40,821 nt of DNA, taken from the sequence record DRR723986_1305. One strand, 5' to 3'. A program made the position numbers and the translations under genes. The notes beneath the pieces are model-generated. The model was not told where the DNA came from. It ran no database searches and worked only from the letters and a program-made list of their open reading frames with translations. Position 1 is the first letter of the stretch, and the number at the start of each line of letters is the position of its first letter. Positions 32,516 through 38,691 of this stretch are shown here, piece after piece.

Positions 32516-32662
32516 ACCCACAGGGATAAACCCGCAAAGCGCCCCTATAACCAAGGGCCAAGACCGGGCAAAAACGCCCGCCTGTAACCTGCGATTACAG
32601 ACATGCGGGCCTCCTGCCCCTAGCTTTTCCTTATCCCTGCAGAAAACAGATAGGAAAAGACA

Positions 32663-33103
32663 ATGTTACGCAGAACCATTTTACAATTGCTGTTAACCAC
32701 AGGTGCGGCAAGCTTTGTCACCATACCCTCTATTGCCTCGGCCAGCGGTGACGGCGGTGGCGATGGCGGCGATGGGGCCGGTGGCGGCAGCGGTGCAGGC
32801 GGCGGCGACAGCAGCGGCGGCGATGACGGCGCAGGCAGCGGTGGGGCAAATGGCGGCAGCGGGGCCGGTAGTGACGATGGCGCAGGCCATGGCAATGACG
32901 ACGGCGATGACAATGGCAATGACAGCAGCAACGATGATGGCGGCGCAGGCAGCGGGCCGGCCAGCGCCATTAGCGGCAGCAGCGCAGGCGATCGCGACAG
33001 CCAAAACGCCGCCATAGGCGAGGTGCAAGGCGCGATGGAGGCTGATGGTATGTCAGCGGTCAGCCCTGCGGATTTGTCGGGCACTATGGCGGCGTTCCGT
33101 TAA
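32663..33103 (+). CDS. Putative secreted Gly/Asp/Ser-rich low-complexity protein
   Basis: RBS agga, MLRRTILQLLL...IASA signal (twin-Arg-like), repeated DDGAG(S/H)G units. Confidence 0.6.
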   Translation: MLRRTILQLLLTTGAASFVTIPSIASASGDGGGDGGDGAGGGSGAGGGDSSGGDDGAGSGGANGGSGAGSDDGAGHGNDDGDDNGNDSSNDDGGAGSGPASAISGSSAGDRDSQNAAIGEVQGAMEADGMSAVSPADLSGTMAAFR

Positions 33104-33244: not shown

Positions 33245-33691
33245 CTATTGGCCGATCTGAATGCGATTGCCCACACCTGAAACCTGCCCCACAACCCAGC
33301 CATTTGGCGCCGCAGACACCGCCACCAGATTATGCGCGCCGGTCACCGCCAGCACCACACCAGCGCCCGGGGCCACGGTTAGCCTTGCCACGTTGCCCCC
33401 GCCGCTGACCATCAAATGCACCAAGGAATAGGGCTGTTGATGGATATAAAGGCCAGTATCATCAGGCGCGGTAACAGAATGCGTAACCGTCTCATCAGCC
33501 AGATAGATGTGCTGCGCGCCCTCTGGGCTTTGGCCAGGCACGGGCGCTGTGGCCTCGGCTGCCCCGACAGCATGCATAATTTTGTAAATGCCAGCCAAAT
33601 CCGACGCATGGGAAACCTGCGGCGCAATAGCGACGCAAAGAGCCGCCAAAAAGCGCAGGAAAGGGGCAAAGCTGGGAATAGCACGCGTCAT
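33245..33691 (-). CDS. Secreted protein with degenerate curlin-like repeats (CsgB-like nucleator candidate)
   Basis: Signal peptide ending VSHA; SGGGNVARL, TGAHNLVAV and SGVGNRIQIGQ; lies downstream of csgG on the same strand. Confidence 0.5.
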   Translation of the reverse strand: MTRAIPSFAPFLRFLAALCVAIAPQVSHASDLAGIYKIMHAVGAAEATAPVPGQSPEGAQHIYLADETVTHSVTAPDDTGLYIHQQPYSLVHLMVSGGGNVARLTVAPGAGVVLAVTGAHNLVAVSAAPNGWVVGQVSGVGNRIQIGQ

Positions 33692-33847: not shown

Positions 33848-34852
33848 TTACCAATAGCCCTCGGATGTCATATCAGAAATCAAATGCGACAGCGCCTGAC
33901 GAAAGGCAATATTCAGCGCAAATGTCTTAGGTTCGTTAAATGCGTAGCCACTTTCAAATTCTAAAATACTATCCACAGCAACATAAGATAAAATACTGCC
34001 CTGCTGCCGCTGGGAAACAATATCTTGGGTAATGGTTTTTGTGCTCAGCACGATGCCGCTGGATGCGCTGACAATTCTAAGGTTAATGGTAACCTTGTCG
34101 CGGCGAAACTCGCCCAAGCCGCCAATATTAAACAGCCGCAACCCCGTGCCACTGGAAAACAAATCTGCCTCATATGCCACGATAGAGCCTAAGACAATAT
34201 ATTCGGCGGTCGCCAGATCTGGCGCTGGCTTTGCCCCTTCGAATTGCGAAAATGGCTTTTCTGGCTTGATCCCTGCACGCCGCTTTTGTGCATAAGCTTC
34301 TAGGTTTGACAGGGTTTGTTCACGCGTTGGAACATCGGGGGGCAAATTGTTTGGGTCAAGTTTACTGTATTCCTGCAGCACCTGTCGGCGCAATTGGGAA
34401 ACCTCTTGTTCGATTTGCGATGCTTCTTTTGCAATGCGCCCGCGTTCAGCATTGATATGCGCGCGCTGACGGCGCTGTAATTCCTGTGCCTCGCGGATTT
34501 GGCGCTCGTTCAGCAGCGAGGCTGTATTTGACCGCTCGACCAATGTGAACCAGGTGCCCCCACCCACCGCTTTTAGAATTTCCATCAACAATGCCTCTGG
34601 CCCCTGCGGCATTGCTTTGGAAATTTCCGCAAAATCGGGGTTAGATTTATTTGCCCCCGTCTGATCGGGAATGGGATATACCGCTAACAGAATTGGGCTT
34701 TGTCGTGGGGGCAAATCATCGGTAGACACAAATGCAGGCGCGCCGGCCGCAATGTTCAAACCGGCATGGTTTTGCAAAGGGGCATTCTGCATTGCGCATC
34801 CTTGCAGCACCAAGATTGCGCATAACACACGAATAGTTTGGCCCAGCTTCAT
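33848..34852 (-). CDS. csgG: Curli secretion channel lipoprotein (CsgG/HfaB family) with internal insertion
   Basis: Lipobox LQGC, AVYPIPDQTG, SKAMPQG, WFTLVER...LLNERQI, GSIVAYE, DKVTINLRIVS, LEFESGYAFNEP; ATGA overlap with the csgF stop. Confidence 0.88.
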   Translation of the reverse strand: MKLGQTIRVLCAILVLQGCAMQNAPLQNHAGLNIAAGAPAFVSTDDLPPRQSPILLAVYPIPDQTGANKSNPDFAEISKAMPQGPEALLMEILKAVGGGTWFTLVERSNTASLLNERQIREAQELQRRQRAHINAERGRIAKEASQIEQEVSQLRRQVLQEYSKLDPNNLPPDVPTREQTLSNLEAYAQKRRAGIKPEKPFSQFEGAKPAPDLATAEYIVLGSIVAYEADLFSSGTGLRLFNIGGLGEFRRDKVTINLRIVSASSGIVLSTKTITQDIVSQRQQGSILSYVAVDSILEFESGYAFNEPKTFALNIAFRQALSHLISDMTSEGYW

Positions 34853-35277
34853 TGCAGTGGCACACAAATATTGCTGCTAGAACCAAGCGCAATATCCGTA
34901 ATTGCCACGCAGAATTGGTTTGTGTCTGTGTGGCTTTGATAGACGATATTCAGATCCCCAACACTGACCTCACCATCCTGGGCCTGTGCATTCGCATCCG
35001 TTGCATAGATATCTGAAACGATATTCGAGGCCACAGCGCTTAGCAATCGCCGGCGCAGTTGCTCTTCGAACAGTTCAACATCTGTCTTTTCGCGTGTTGG
35101 GTTGAAATCTGGCTTTTGCTGCTCGAGCAAATTCAGAAAGTAATTGGTATTCAGCCCACTTCCGCCAAATGACGGCAATGTAAATCTGTAGGTCAATTCA
35201 GCGCCCTGCACGGCTGTACACCCAAGGGTTGCTAAAACGCATATCGGTTTCAAAATTTTATTGCCTGTTTTCAGCAC
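34849..35277 (-). CDS. csgF: Curli assembly protein CsgF
   Basis: Signal peptide then AELTYRFTLPSFGGSGLNTNYFLN (CsgF-type N-terminus), FEEQLRRRLLS; GTG start with ggagg RBS. Confidence 0.8.
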   Translation of the reverse strand: MLKTGNKILKPICVLATLGCTAVQGAELTYRFTLPSFGGSGLNTNYFLNLLEQQKPDFNPTREKTDVELFEEQLRRRLLSAVASNIVSDIYATDANAQAQDGEVSVGDLNIVYQSHTDTNQFCVAITDIALGSSSNICVPLQ

Positions 35278-35485
35278 CCTATGCCTCCGCTTACAGGGCG
35301 GCGCGTGCGCCACTTGATGCTTTTCTGGAAAAGCCAAACCGCGCGAGGCTATTTTTACGCCATTACCGGCGCTTGTTTTGCCCCTTTGAACACATCAAGA
35401 AAACCACTTTAACAAGCCATCAAGCAGCACAGCCGCCTGACCATTTATCAACACATTACCAAAGGCACTTTGTTTTTTGCTTGCT

Positions 35486-36724
35486 CTAAAATTGCTCGAT
35501 CACCAGTTTTTTATTGCCGTTCACTTCGGTCTCTACGATGTTTGCCGCCGAGTGCTGTGCAAGCGTATAGGTGTTTTTATTGCCATCAATTGTTACAGTC
35601 GCCCGGGCCGTAGCAATGCTTTGGGTGACAGACACGTTGTTGCTGTTGCCATCAATGCTTAGGCTCAAATACACACTTGCCGCTGATTGCGTTGCAGAAA
35701 ACACGTTATTATTCCCTGCTACATGCGCCACAAACTGCGCGCCCTGTGCAAGGTTTGATTGTGTCAACGTCCCTTCATTATTATTTCCGCTAATATAAAG
35801 ATCTGCGGTAGCATCGCTGGCGCTTTGCGTGATCGTCACTGCGTTTTGCAGCCCATAAATATTGAGGTTTGTCGTTGCGCTGGCGTTTTGGGTCACATCA
35901 GCGCGGTTTTCATTCCCCTCAATATAAAGGTGGCTATACGCACCATCAGATGTCTGCGCCAAATCAACAACGGCATCGTTCCCCATAACTGTGATGATGG
36001 CGGTGTTGATATTGCCAGTTTGCACCGCGTCCAGCGTCGCATTTTCTGCAACAGCTGTTATAGACGCAATATTTTCATCACCGGTTTGCGTTATATTCGC
36101 TTGCCCGCGCCCGGTCGTTGCGTTGAGAAATGCAAAGATCCCGTTGTTATCGCCTGTTTGCACCGCACGAATACCAGTCGCCATAGCGCCAATTTGGCCA
36201 ATGACCAAAGTGTTGGCATCCCCCAGCTGGTCTAAAACCGCCACTGCGCTATCGCCAACCTGATAAAGCGCAACGCTATTGTCATGGCCCGCGCTGTCAA
36301 TATCAGCATCGCCGCCATCCCCAAGCTGTGTTCCAAAAACTGTATTTCGCAACCCAACTACATCTATTGTTGTTGTGGCGGATGATGCCGCCACTGTGCC
36401 GCCAAGCGCCGTATCAACGATTGTATTAATTTGCCCAGAAAGGGTGGTATGTTGATCTGATTTGTTATCAGAAATCGCGCTACTGCGGTTGTAAAACCCG
36501 CCTCCAGCCCATGTGTTTACAAATTTGGTTGCAGTCACCGCATCGGATTGACCCTGATAAAACTGCACATAATTCGCGTCATCTGCCAGCGCCGAGGCGC
36601 TAGAATCTACAGAAAATGTAAGGCTGTTACCTTCGGCAAAAGCAGCAGGAGCCTGTAGAGCGCAGCAAACAAACACACCAAACGCGGCTTTGCGACCCGA
36701 AGGTTCATTAAAATACTGGCACAT
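35486..36724 (-). CDS. csgA: Long curlin-repeat protein (CsgA-like major subunit)
   Basis: Sec signal ending AFA; about 13-14 repeats of ~22 aa with QxGxxN / GNxN...Q; RBS aaggag. Confidence 0.75.
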   Translation of the reverse strand: MCQYFNEPSGRKAAFGVFVCCALQAPAAFAEGNSLTFSVDSSASALADDANYVQFYQGQSDAVTATKFVNTWAGGGFYNRSSAISDNKSDQHTTLSGQINTIVDTALGGTVAASSATTTIDVVGLRNTVFGTQLGDGGDADIDSAGHDNSVALYQVGDSAVAVLDQLGDANTLVIGQIGAMATGIRAVQTGDNNGIFAFLNATTGRGQANITQTGDENIASITAVAENATLDAVQTGNINTAIITVMGNDAVVDLAQTSDGAYSHLYIEGNENRADVTQNASATTNLNIYGLQNAVTITQSASDATADLYISGNNNEGTLTQSNLAQGAQFVAHVAGNNNVFSATQSAASVYLSLSIDGNSNNVSVTQSIATARATVTIDGNKNTYTLAQHSAANIVETEVNGNKKLVIEQF

Positions 36725-36905
36725 CTCATGTCTCCTTTGAGATCATTATATCTTTAGTATGTGTAATATTTTATCAAAAGTCTATAAAAAACACTTAATT
36801 GCTTTTTTCATTTCAAAACAGGTGCTTAACTTATTTTGTCGCTTATTCGAATACCGTATTATGATAGTTACGATTATAATAACAACTTTTGGTAGATTTT
36901 ATGGC
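36725..36905 (-). promoter_or_regulatory. AT-rich upstream region of the curli operon
   Basis: Strongly AT-rich non-coding stretch directly upstream of the csgA-like gene. Confidence 0.5.
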
Positions 36906-37050
36906 CAGAATTTCCGCTACAACCCAGCGCTGCTCAAATTTAGCCCTTCCGCAGCCGATTGGTGCGCTTTTGGGTATCGACGGTGTGCAGCCGGGCTGTG
37001 CCCGCACCCTGCCGTGCTTGAAGCGCGGTATCACAAGCTTAGCCTAAATT

Positions 37051-37671
37051 TCAGACAATCCCGCGTTCCGGCAGGTCAAGGCCAAGCAGCCGGCGGACGC
37101 TATGGATGTAATAATTAAACACATCACGATCGACCGGCATGGCGTTTTTAACCCCCATCACAAACTGCACATAGGGGGTGCCTGCCAATTGGCCTTTGTC
37201 AGCCATATCTTTGGCCTTCAGAATGTGGCTCAGATCAAAGGCTTCGATTTCCGGTTTCACACCGTATTTCAGCATCTCGCCAGACAGCCAGTCAACCAGA
37301 TCCGGCGGGTTTTCATAAACGCGGGTTGGGAAATTGTTCGACCCAACCGACAGCGATGCCATATCTGGGCGCAGCGGCAGCATGCCCCCCCGCGTTTGAG
37401 CGGCGCCCGACCTGCCACCCGTTGAAAACTGGATGATCATGCCCGGGCAGTGCTTTTGCACCCCTTCTTTTAGGGCCGCGAACTTTTCTGGATCTGATGA
37501 GGGCGTTCCATCATCATTGCGCACATGCGCATGCACGATGGTTGCGCCCGCCTTGAAAGCCTCGTGGGTCGATTCCACCTGCTCGGACACGCTGATCGGA
37601 ACAGCCGGGTTGTTGGCCTTGGTGGGTAAGCTGCCAGTGATGGCCACGCATATGATGCAAGGGGTGGTCAT
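37051..37671 (-). pseudogene. kce: 3-keto-5-aminohexanoate cleavage enzyme (BKACE/DUF849), C-terminally truncated
   Basis: IICVAITGS, HAHVR, QFSTGG, PDMASL, KPEIEAFD, QFVMG. Stops at about 206 aa with no GGHxRxGLED motif. Confidence 0.75.
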
Positions 37672-37833
37672 AATCATCATCCGTATTGGATGCCGCGCAA
37701 GATGTGGCGCGGCATCGGGGGTATCGGTATTGCTGAATGCGCAACGCGCATTCAACCAACTGTTTTCAATGCATTAGGCCCCCGGGGTAATGGCGCTGTT
37801 GCGCATGCCCCTGTTGCCCTGCAGGGCTGCGCG

Positions 37834-38691
37834 TCAGGCCGCCTTGGCCGGATGCAGGGGCATCTTTTCCAATGCCTCTACAAAAAACGGGCGGAAACCT
37901 GCGGGATGTTCGCTCATTGGGAAATGGCCAAGCTCGTCCATGATGGCCAAGGTGGCGCCGGGAATGGCCCTTGCGGTGCGCTCTGCATCCTCGGGCGTGC
38001 AGGTCAGGTCATAGGCGCCCACGATGATATGTATCGGTGTCACTGCGGTATCGATTGTGGGCAGGCGCGGGATCAGGCTGTCATCGCGGGTATAAAAGCT
38101 AAGATCGCCCCGAAAGACGCCAGGGCCGCTTTGCATGAACATCCAAAGCGTATTCCAGCGCTCGGTATTTGGCGCATAGGGCGAAATATTGGCCGAAACC
38201 AGGGCGGCGCCCATTTCGCCCCCATGCGCATCGGGGCGGTGAAAACAGTCGATATCATACCAGGCGGGCTGAAAATCCGACGCTTCGATGGCGATAAACC
38301 CGCTGAATTTATCCCTGTGCAGCGCTGCCAGCTGCAGCGCAATCCGCCCACCCATCGAACAGCCCGCAAGCACCGGGCGATCAAGGCCCAGCGCATCGAT
38401 CACCGCCAGAACCGTTTCAATATAGGCCTCGGTGGTCAGCAAATATTCTTGTGTTTCAAAGCCTTCGGGCGGCAGGGATTTCCCGTGCCAGGGCATATCA
38501 AAGGCAATCAAGCGGTTCGTCGCGGTGATCTCGGCGTCATTCATCAAATGACGCCACTGCCGGGTATCGGCCCCAGCTGTGTGCAGGCAAACAACAGGGC
38601 GGCCCTGCCCTGCCTCCTCAAAATAAATCCGGCGCGGCGTGCCTTCAACATTTACCGTGACATAGCGGCCGGTAATCGCTTCGATGCTCAT
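37834..38691 (-). CDS. Alpha/beta hydrolase
   Basis: CLHTAG, FDMPWHGKS, GCSMGG nucleophile elbow, LGHFPMSE. Confidence 0.9.
   Translation of the reverse strand: MSIEAITGRYVTVNVEGTPRRIYFEEAGQGRPVVCLHTAGADTRQWRHLMNDAEITATNRLIAFDMPWHGKSLPPEGFETQEYLLTTEAYIETVLAVIDALGLDRPVLAGCSMGGRIALQLAALHRDKFSGFIAIEASDFQPAWYDIDCFHRPDAHGGEMGAALVSANISPYAPNTERWNTLWMFMQSGPGVFRGDLSFYTRDDSLIPRLPTIDTAVTPIHIIVGAYDLTCTPEDAERTARAIPGATLAIMDELGHFPMSEHPAGFRPFFVEALEKMPLHPAKAA

What the first reader, a model, noticed from the sequence alone, without database searches (positions are those of the whole stretch)
34223..34483. CsgG secretion pore with a ~75-aa extra helical insertion at the periplasmic helix, in a locus with no csgE
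Seen: 87 highly charged, heptad-like residues (ELQRRQRAHINAERGRIAKEASQIEQEVSQLRRQVLQEY...REQTLSNLEAYAQKRR...) lie between the conserved LLNERQIREAQ and PDLATAEYIVLGSIVAYE. Known: in E. coli CsgG this link is only about a dozen residues and lies at the periplasmic end of the nonameric pore, the side capped by CsgE. Inference: the insertion could form a built-in coiled-coil vestibule or gate that replaces CsgE and handles the unusually long curlin. It is also a natural architectural variant of a nanopore-sequencing scaffold.
Basis: partly seen in the sequence, partly recalled or inferred. Interest (0 to 1): 0.8.

Follow-up and report, generated by a model that had tools for sequence, protein, structure and literature searches.

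The report
CsgG curli pore with helical arm
A marine Rhodobacteraceae curli secretion pore (CsgG) carries a conserved, confidently folded 74-residue helical hairpin on its periplasmic side, a hallmark of a small unreported CsgG subfamily, but nothing ties it specifically to the missing helper protein CsgE.

Summary
The csgG ORF (33848-34867, minus strand) has 84 residues (130-213) where E. coli CsgG has 10, a net gain of 74. AlphaFold2 folds them at pLDDT 95-98. Helix alpha2 runs on to 55 residues, followed by a turn, a 17-residue return helix and a conserved extended strap.

The insertion marks a small CsgG subfamily:
- 15 loci, all Rhodobacterales, each with a minimal curlin-csgF-csgG operon.
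- Longer versions (up to a 211-residue linker) in Hyphomicrobiaceae.

It replaces loop T104-R110. In E. coli that loop lies outside the periplasmic chamber, beside the crevice that docks the CsgA N-terminus (PMC6957492).

The CsgE-replacement idea has no specific support:
- csgE is missing from 0 of 14 insertion-type genomes.
- It is equally missing from 0 of 22 alphaproteobacterial genomes whose csgF-csgG lacks the insertion.
- Longer curlins occur with insertion-less pores.

Best reading: nine separate periplasmic arms that act as a docking or guide crown, or as struts. A closing gate is less likely. The oligomer geometry remains unmodelled. This is a new variant of a known kind, of moderate interest.

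The parts
33848..34867 (-). csgG, the outer-membrane lipoprotein pore of the curli (type VIII) secretion system. The ORF runs from TTG 34867 (339 aa). The likely true start is ATG 34852-34850 (334 aa).
   Evidence: Pfam CsgG 4e-31. VIA-align Z 16-17 to CsgG structures 7brm, 4uv3 and 6l7a; Foldseek E 2e-14. Cys24 is invariant after a signal helix. ATG 34852 overlaps the csgF stop as ATGA, and close homologues P0002 and P0004 are 334 aa.
34229..34480 (-). The insertion proper: residues 130-213 of the 339-aa ORF, with no counterpart in E. coli CsgG. It takes the place of E. coli precursor residues 117-126 (mature 102-111).
   Evidence: phmmer alignment to PDB CsgG chains. Linker measurement over 159 sequences.
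34361..34480 (-). C-terminal prolongation of helix alpha2 (residues 130-169). With the canonical part it forms one 55-residue helix, 115-169. The proximal part carries the conserved polar stripe Q128/Q134/R135/H137/E141. The distal part carries a heptad seam.
   Evidence: AF2 DSSP H115-169 at pLDDT 95-98. Conservation. Hydrophobic pattern.
34325..34360 (-). Pro-rich turn at the tip of the hairpin (residues 170-181), with invariant P180.
   Evidence: AF2 shows no secondary structure at 170-181. P180 is invariant.
34274..34324 (-). Return helix (residues 182-198), which pairs antiparallel with the distal half of the long helix.
   Evidence: AF2 H182-198. Hydrophobic columns at 182, 186, 189 and 192.
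34202..34273 (-). Extended strap leading back to strand beta3 (residues 199-222). It contains the conserved motif KPEKPFSQFEG (clade consensus EKPFSxFEG).
   Evidence: AF2 shows no helix or strand here, but pLDDT is 90-97. P205 and F206 are conserved.
34849..35337 (-). csgF, translationally coupled to csgG.
   Evidence: Pfam CsgF 2.8e-17. Found directly upstream of csgG in all insertion-type loci that keep upstream DNA.
35486..36724 (-). Curlin (CsgA-like subunit, 412 aa), the first gene of the operon.
   Evidence: Pfam Curlin_rpt 2.1e-12. NCBIfam CsgA and CsgB matches below cut-off. The family is shared by 11 loci, the window among them.
33245..33691 (-). orf148: a small protein with a signal peptide, downstream of csgG, with GxGN-type repeats at its C-terminus. 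It is possibly a minor curlin. It is shared only with the closest relative.
   Evidence: No Pfam or NCBIfam match. The only homologue is in L001/L003. The curlin-like reading comes from inspecting the sequence, not from a test.

Best explanation
This is the CsgG pore of a minimal three-gene curli operon (curlin-csgF-csgG) in a marine Rhodobacteraceae.

Shown:
- Periplasmic helix alpha2 is prolonged by about 40 residues. From standard helix geometry that is about 60 A.
- The chain turns at a Pro-rich tip and returns through a 17-residue helix. That helix zips onto the distal half of the long helix through one heptad seam.
- A conserved extended strap (EKPFSxFEG) then leads back to the strand that rises into the membrane barrel.
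- This hairpin is a heritable hallmark of a distinct CsgG subfamily.
- It replaces the short loop T104-R110 of E. coli CsgG.

From the literature: in E. coli that loop is flexible and lies outside the periplasmic chamber. It becomes ordered when the CsgA N-terminal targeting peptide docks in the adjacent crevice.

Inferred: each of the nine protomers hangs one rigid arm below the outer rim of the periplasmic ring. Together the arms make an open crown that deepens the entry zone. The arms serve as a built-in docking and guide surface for the unfolded curlin, and they may reach toward the peptidoglycan. They do not form a lid that closes the channel, and they are not a specific substitute for CsgE.
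For: Structure:
- AF2 gives pLDDT 95-98 over residues 100-220, with H115-169, H182-198 and an ordered strap.
- The core matches the CsgG fold at Z 16-17, with 191-221 residues aligned within model range 47-339, so the hairpin is left over.

Site:
- Query residues 130-213 replace E. coli mature residues 102-111.
- Yan et al. 2020 place loop T104-R110 outside the periplasmic chamber. It orders on CsgA-N22 binding, and its deletion reduces Congo-red binding (PMC6957492, passages).

Conservation:
- Mean column identity is 0.42-0.54 in the insertion and 0.63-0.66 in the core, over 21 sequences below 90% identity.
- An invariant polar stripe lies on one helix face at the base.

One seam only:
- Bulky hydrophobic columns make up 15-24% of the hairpin helices, and all of them sit in the intra-hairpin a/d seam.
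- That fits solitary arms better than a packed 18-helix wall.

Lineage:
- In a tree built on the core only, 25 of 26 long-linker proteins fall in one clade (support 0.94). The query's group sits in a 21-tip clade (support 0.999).
- The 15 loci with the ~105-residue linker are all Rhodobacterales.

Context:
- Only curlin, csgF and csgG are shared among the 15 insertion-type loci (13 with the ~105-residue linker plus L059) and the window.
- Curlins of the clade keep a hydrophobic-x-aromatic-Ser motif just after the signal peptide, for example VTYSS, IIYSS and, in the window, LTFS. This is a lead for conserved N-terminal docking.
Against: - No oligomer model exists, so the direction and spacing of the arms are inferred. 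The basis is the beta-alpha-beta topology and a sentence in a paper whose supplementary figures I could not see.
- Nothing shows that substrate binds the hairpin.
- The E. coli crevice residues are not kept. T31/G32 correspond to Q56/S57, and the protein ends at W339, the equivalent of W237, so D238 and the C-terminal helix are missing. Docking may therefore work differently or elsewhere.
- Related proteins carry very different lengths at this site (78-211 aa), and some are low-complexity. That fits a spacer or strut at least as well as a specific docking surface.
Confidence: 0.45

Rival explanations
1. Built-in CsgE substitute. The nine hairpins pack into an 18-helix coiled-coil cage or gate under the periplasmic mouth. 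This cage encloses the curlin and closes the channel, which makes CsgE unnecessary.
For: - No csgE above cut-off in any of 14 insertion-type genomes, and none in the window.
- No other accessory gene is shared by these loci.
- The hairpin is rigid and conserved.
- A review asks how csgE-less Alphaproteobacteria with large curlins could trap them without a larger cavity (PMC4389571, passages).
- My own arithmetic, not a model: 18 helices at about 10 A spacing give a ring of about 57 A, close to the reported mouth size.
Against: - csgE is equally absent from all 22 alphaproteobacterial genomes with insertion-less csgF-csgG, and from Alphaproteobacteria in general (PMC3521004).
- CsgH does not track the insertion either: 0 of 14 insertion-type genomes, 3 of 22 insertion-less, and 2 of 5 with the very long insertion.
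- The replaced loop lies outside the chamber.
- There is only one hydrophobic seam.
- Insertion length varies from 78 to 211 aa, and some versions are low-complexity.
- Longer curlins go with insertion-less pores.
Confidence: 0.13
2. Envelope strut. The arms are spacers that reach, or pass through, the peptidoglycan layer. They fix the pore's position or keep an opening in the sacculus below it, and they never touch the substrate.
For: - The arm adds about 60 A to the periplasmic reach here. The Hyphomicrobiaceae relative P0027 has a 110-residue alpha2 helix, an extension of about 140 A. Lengths are from helix geometry.
- Other CsgG homologues carry periplasmic add-ons that bind the wall, namely C-terminal SPOR domains in P0068 and P0098.
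- The insertion clade lacks any C-terminal tail.
- The surface is highly charged, with a net charge of +5.
Against: - No peptidoglycan-binding family matches the insertion. There are only weak coiled-coil matches below cut-off.
- The conserved polar stripe at the base, next to the E. coli docking site, suggests a specific contact rather than a plain spacer.
Confidence: 0.25
3. Assembly collar. The hairpins contact neighbouring protomers, or the N-terminal lipid-anchor linker. They stabilise the ring or change its subunit number, making up for the lost C-terminal helix.
For: - The clade ends at the residue equivalent to E. coli W237, so it lacks the C-terminal helix and tail present in most relatives.
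- The strap and the polar stripe are conserved.
Against: - No oligomer model was obtained.
- Arms on the outer rim would stand about 35 A apart if they are straight. This is my own geometry from the published ring size, which I recalled and did not check.
- The distal half looks self-contained.
Confidence: 0.1

Closest known systems
E. coli CsgG (PDB 4UV3, 4Q79, 6L7A/6L7C, 6SI7), the curli type VIII secretion pore
   Same: - Same Pfam family and same fold: Z 16-17, 31-35% identity over the aligned core.
- N-terminal lipoprotein Cys.
- Two predicted transmembrane hairpins.
- csgF and a curlin sit next door.
   Different: - 84 residues replace the 10-residue link that contains loop T104-R110.
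- The protein ends at the W237 equivalent, with no C-terminal helix.
- The constriction residues Y51/N55/F56 align to N76/E81/I82, with an extra conserved F79 (this is a loop region, so the alignment is uncertain).
- It scores 113.8 bits against a 505-bit cut-off for the NCBIfam CsgG equivalog.
- No csgE, csgC, csgD or csgH was found nearby.
CsgG-CsgE capped complex of E. coli (a nonameric CsgE cap at the periplasmic mouth)
   Same: - Both add protein mass to the periplasmic side of the pore.
- Both could in principle enlarge or enclose the entry chamber (reviews).
   Different: - CsgE is a separate soluble protein that docks at the bottom of the chamber. The hairpin is covalent and starts from a loop described as outside the chamber.
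- The insertion has no similarity to CsgE.
Insertion-less alphaproteobacterial CsgG (Devosia, Rhizobium, Mesorhizobium, many Rhodobacteraceae)
   Same: - Same csgF-csgG pairing, and the same lack of csgE.
- Both forms occur in the same bacterial family.
   Different: - Their linker is short, at 20-36 aa.
- They instead carry C-terminal extensions, with ORFs of 350-526 aa.
- In the sampled family they are commoner, 13 genomes against 3 out of 401.
Hyphomicrobiaceae long-hairpin CsgG (P0027, P0028, P0031, P0072)
   Same: - Insertion at the same site, in the sister clade of the core-only tree.
- The insertion is also a helical hairpin.
- csgF is adjacent in 2 of the 5 Hyphomicrobiaceae-type loci scanned.
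   Different: - The linker is 148-211 aa, and the alpha2 helix is 110 residues long.
- CsgH is present in 2 of 5 of these genomes.
- A C-terminal helix is retained.
TolC- or Wza-type periplasmic helical barrels (a comparison of workings only, recalled)
   Same: Long antiparallel helices hanging from an outer-membrane pore into the periplasm.
   Different: There is no homology. A barrel arrangement has not been shown here, and the single hydrophobic seam argues against one.

Membership tests
CsgG family (Pfam PF03783) | Profile match above the curated cut-off | tested here: met
   108.4 bits against a 20.8 cut-off, E 4e-31, in two stretches split by the insertion.
CsgG family (Pfam PF03783) | CsgG fold: an alpha/beta periplasmic domain with two beta-hairpins that build the barrel | tested here: met
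   VIA-align Z 16.1-17.1 to 7brm, 6lqh, 4uv3, 6l7a and 4q79. Foldseek E 2e-14. Hairpin strands are predicted at 223-245/248-267 and at 273-292; the return strand of the second hairpin has low pLDDT.
CsgG family (Pfam PF03783) | Outer-membrane lipoprotein: a signal peptide ending in a lipobox Cys | tested here: met
   An N-terminal helix precedes LQGC, and Cys24 is invariant in 30 and in 13 aligned sequences. No dedicated lipoprotein predictor was run.
CsgG family (Pfam PF03783) | Nonameric ring | not testable with these tools
   No oligomer model was obtained.
CsgG family (Pfam PF03783) | Constriction loop with the E. coli Y51/N55/F56 rings | tested here: inconclusive
   The HMMER alignment pairs these with N76/E81/I82 and leaves the conserved F79 unpaired. 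The loop is modelled at pLDDT 56-62.
Enterobacterial CsgG equivalog (NCBIfam NF011731) | Score above the equivalog cut-off | tested here: not met
   113.8 bits against a 505-bit cut-off. It is a family member, not an equivalog.
Curli / type VIII secretion operon | csgG beside csgF and a curlin-repeat subunit | tested here: met
   CsgF 2.8e-17 and Curlin_rpt 2.1e-12 in the two genes upstream. The same trio appears in related loci.
Curli / type VIII secretion operon | Accessory genes csgE, csgC/csgH and csgD, as in the E. coli-type system | tested here: not met
   None among the 41 window ORFs scanned. CsgE and CsgH are above cut-off in 0 of 14 related genomes. The window's own genome is not held. 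CsgC and CsgD were not searched for in those genomes.

The most novel reading that the evidence does not exclude
The nine hairpins tilt inward and assemble into an 18-helix periplasmic barrel. This barrel would lengthen the CsgG vestibule by about 6 nm here, and by about 14 nm in Hyphomicrobiaceae relatives. It would give a three-gene curli system a built-in, TolC-like conduit or folding cage. That cage would do the trapping job that the separate CsgE cap does in E. coli. The result would be a natural long-vestibule version of the nanopore-sequencing scaffold.
Probability: 0.12. Interest if true: 0.8.

Novelty: new variant of a known kind. Interest (0 to 1): 0.45.

Why it matters
How csgE-less Alphaproteobacteria secrete large curlins is an open point raised in reviews (PMC4389571).

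This subfamily shows that the CsgG scaffold tolerates a large rigid periplasmic appendage, and has kept it through evolution. The appendage sits exactly at the loop that E. coli uses when it recognises the CsgA N-terminus.

It comes in natural length variants, from about 60 to about 140 A. Cultured carriers exist for experiments: Leisingera sp. ANG-M1, Donghicola tyrosinivorans DSM 100212 and Cognatishimia sp. 1_MG-2023.

It also marks a site on the CsgG nanopore where long insertions are compatible with folding.

The finding does not by itself explain how these bacteria manage without CsgE.

Tried and rejected
- **Oligomer model.** Complex prediction with three copies of residues 25-339 gave "no answer": median score 0.26, mark 0.32, runs of 0.26, 0.36 and 0.00. 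The alignment was not used and no controls were folded. This says nothing either way, so the oligomer geometry stays open.
- **Whole-genome search for csgE and csgG.** No genome is held for this window. I used 14 related genomes instead.
- **Goyal et al. 2014** (the CsgG and CsgG-CsgE structures) is not held under its DOI or PMC id. What I say about ring dimensions is recalled.
- **Supplementary figures of PMC6957492**, which show the loop and the crevice, are closed.
- **Match for the insertion alone.**
  - Pfam scan of residues 113-222: only sub-threshold coiled-coil families.
  - ESM Atlas on the whole protein: only CsgG clusters, mostly viral.
- **Earlier findings of this scan.** None by sequence.
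- **Origin of the low-complexity sister group.** P0018 against viral contigs and genome contigs found no relatives.
- **CsgH as an alternative correlate.** No clean pattern.
- **Rejected: frameshift or fusion artefact.** This is one ORF, conserved in 15 loci.
- **Rejected: disordered linker.** pLDDT is 95-98.
- **Rejected: adaptation to long curlins.** Insertion-less loci have longer ones.

Full report
**What is there.** The minus strand of 33.2-36.7 kb carries a compact operon:
- a 412-aa curlin (35486-36724, Pfam Curlin_rpt 2.1e-12);
- csgF (34849-35337, 2.8e-17);
- csgG (33848-34867, PF03783 4e-31);
- a small secreted ORF with no family match (33245-33691).

The csgG ORF finder starts at TTG 34867. 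However, ATG 34852 overlaps the csgF stop codon as ATGA, and the closest homologues are 334 aa. The real protein is therefore probably 334 aa. I keep the 339-aa numbering throughout.

The operon has 50-52% G+C, against 57-65% in the flanking DNA. The rest of the window encodes ordinary metabolic and transport genes. No csgE, csgC, csgH or csgD is present.

- Against PDB CsgG sequences the match breaks at query residue 129 (E. coli precursor 116) and resumes at 214 (precursor 127). So 84 residues stand where E. coli has 10.
- I analysed 159 sequences: the query, the 150 best library representatives and the other stored homologues. The library search found 642 proteins at E <= 0.001.
- The linker between the NER and GxIxxY motifs is 20-36 aa in 132 of the 159. 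It is 103-105 aa in the query's group and 78-211 aa in a handful of others.

**What it looks like.**
- AlphaFold2 with a 30-sequence alignment gives pLDDT 95-98 across residues 100-220.
- Helix alpha2 runs uninterrupted from 115 to 169.
- A Pro-rich turn follows at 170-181, then a return helix at 182-198.
- An ordered, non-regular strap at 199-222 leads into the strand that rises into the first transmembrane hairpin.
- The core superposes on solved CsgG at Z 16-17, with 191-221 residues aligned, which leaves the hairpin over.
- By helix geometry the prolongation is about 60 A.
- Across 21 clade members below 90% identity, hydrophobic columns form one a/d seam between the distal long helix (145, 152, 156, 159, 163, 167) and the return helix (182, 186, 189, 192).
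- The proximal 20 residues have no conserved bulky hydrophobic column. They carry instead a conserved polar stripe: Q128, Q134 and R135 invariant, H137 and E141 nearly so.
- The hairpin therefore looks self-contained and otherwise solvent-exposed.

**Where it sits.**
- It is periplasmic by topology.
- Yan et al. 2020 use mature numbering (they cite Tyr51, Asn55 and Phe56). They describe loop T104-R110 as flexible and as lying outside the CsgG periplasmic chamber.
- That loop orders when the CsgA N-terminal peptide binds the adjacent crevice, and its deletion reduces Congo-red binding (PMC6957492, passages). I could not see their supplementary figures.
- Query residues 130-213 replace mature residues 102-111, which is exactly this loop.
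- The protein also ends at W339, the equivalent of crevice residue W237. It lacks the C-terminal helix that most relatives keep.
- Curlins of the clade keep a hydrophobic-x-aromatic-Ser motif right after the signal peptide. This is a lead that N-terminal docking persists, not a test of it.

**Distribution.**
- A scan of one genome per species found 78 distinct loci. Fifteen have the ~105-residue linker, and all fifteen are Rhodobacterales: Lutimaribacter, Marivivens, Halocynthiibacter, Amylibacter, Donghicola (two loci), Leisingera, Cognatishimia and several MAGs.
- One Rhizobium locus has a longer version.
- In 401 sampled genomes of that family, 16 have a CsgG. Three have the insertion type and 13 the insertion-less type.
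- In a tree built on the core with the insertion removed, 25 of 26 long-linker proteins fall in one clade (support 0.94).
- Its sister branch is Hyphomicrobiaceae proteins with 148-211-residue linkers. One of these models with a 110-residue alpha2 helix and a matching return.
- Another branch has low-complexity N/Q/P-rich fillings.
- The site is thus an old insertion point of one CsgG subfamily, and its length varies.

**Testing the interpretation.**
- CsgE (PF10627) is above cut-off in 0 of 14 insertion-type genomes.
- It is also above cut-off in 0 of 22 alphaproteobacterial genomes whose csgF-csgG lacks the insertion. The only hit among the 24 genomes of that search is a gammaproteobacterium.
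- Dueholm et al. 2012 already report that all Alphaproteobacteria lack csgC, csgD and csgE, and that CsgG size does not follow curlin size (PMC3521004, passages).
- CsgH gives no pattern either: 0 of 14, 3 of 22 and 2 of 5.
- Curlins beside insertion-less pores reach about 684-809 aa, against 349-565 aa beside insertion-type pores.
- Only curlin, csgF and csgG are shared among insertion-type loci.
- So the two inferences "replaces CsgE" and "handles the long curlin" have no specific support. A closed cage is not excluded either, because no usable oligomer model was obtained (see Tried and rejected).

**Reading.**
- Most likely (0.45): nine separate rigid arms hang from the outer periphery of the periplasmic ring, at the substrate-docking site. 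They act as a docking and guide crown.
- Rivals: a peptidoglycan-reaching strut (0.25), a CsgE-like cage or gate (0.13) and an assembly collar (0.10).
- The strut idea gains from the length variation, and from the SPOR and PEGA add-ons on other CsgG homologues.

**Novelty.** Five full-text searches turned up no description of this insertion. The library lacks most subscription papers and all patents. I rate it a new variant of a known kind, of moderate interest.

Noticed in passing
window 34849-34852: The csgF stop codon and an ATG of csgG overlap as ATGA. The csgG start is therefore probably ATG 34852 (334 aa), not the TTG at 34867 given by the ORF finder.
   Followed up: yes
window 34001-38000: The curli operon and its upstream flank have 50-52% G+C, against 57-65% in the rest of the window. 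This suggests horizontal acquisition. Cognatishimia (L016) shares the flanking GNAT and LysR genes.
   Followed up: partly
window 33245-33691 (-): A 148-aa ORF with a signal peptide and C-terminal GxGN-type repeats, with no Pfam or NCBIfam match. It is shared only with the closest relative (L001/L003). It may be a minor curlin or nucleator.
   Followed up: partly
window 32620-33103 (both strands): Two overlapping ORFs. The plus-strand one is a Gly/Asp/Ser-rich low-complexity protein with a signal-like start. The minus-strand one is a Pro/Ser/Leu-rich protein. The stretch is conserved in L003. Which strand codes is unresolved.
   Followed up: no
window 33848-33850 (C-terminus of csgG): The whole insertion clade ends at or near the Trp equivalent to E. 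coli W237. It lacks the C-terminal helix and tail that insertion-less relatives carry.
   Followed up: partly
proteins P0068, P0098, P0104, P0094 (library representatives): Insertion-less CsgG homologues with C-terminal SPOR domains (P0068, P0098) or PEGA domains (P0104), and one protein with CsgF and CsgG fused in a single 687-aa chain (P0094).
   Followed up: no
L007 and L015 (Donghicola tyrosinivorans DSM 100212): Two separate curlin-csgF-csgG loci of the insertion type in one genome, on different contigs.
   Followed up: no
L083 3620-4012 (-), 5489-5914 (+) and 6001-7419 (+): A Hyphomicrobiaceae-type MAG locus with CsgH, CsgF and a 473-aa CsgG. Its alpha2 is modelled as a 110-residue helix with a full-length return.
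   Followed up: partly
window 35486-36724 (-) and curlins of L007, L010, L014, L015, L016: Just after the signal peptide, curlins of the clade share a short motif: hydrophobic, any residue, aromatic, Ser. Examples are VTYSS, IIYSS and VIYST, and LTFS in the window. It is reminiscent of the E. coli CsgA N-terminal docking peptide.
   Followed up: partly
window 34618-34680 (csgG residues 63-83): The constriction loop differs from E. coli. The positions aligned to Y51/N55/F56 are N76/E81/I82, with an extra conserved Phe79. The model is only of moderate confidence here.
   Followed up: partly
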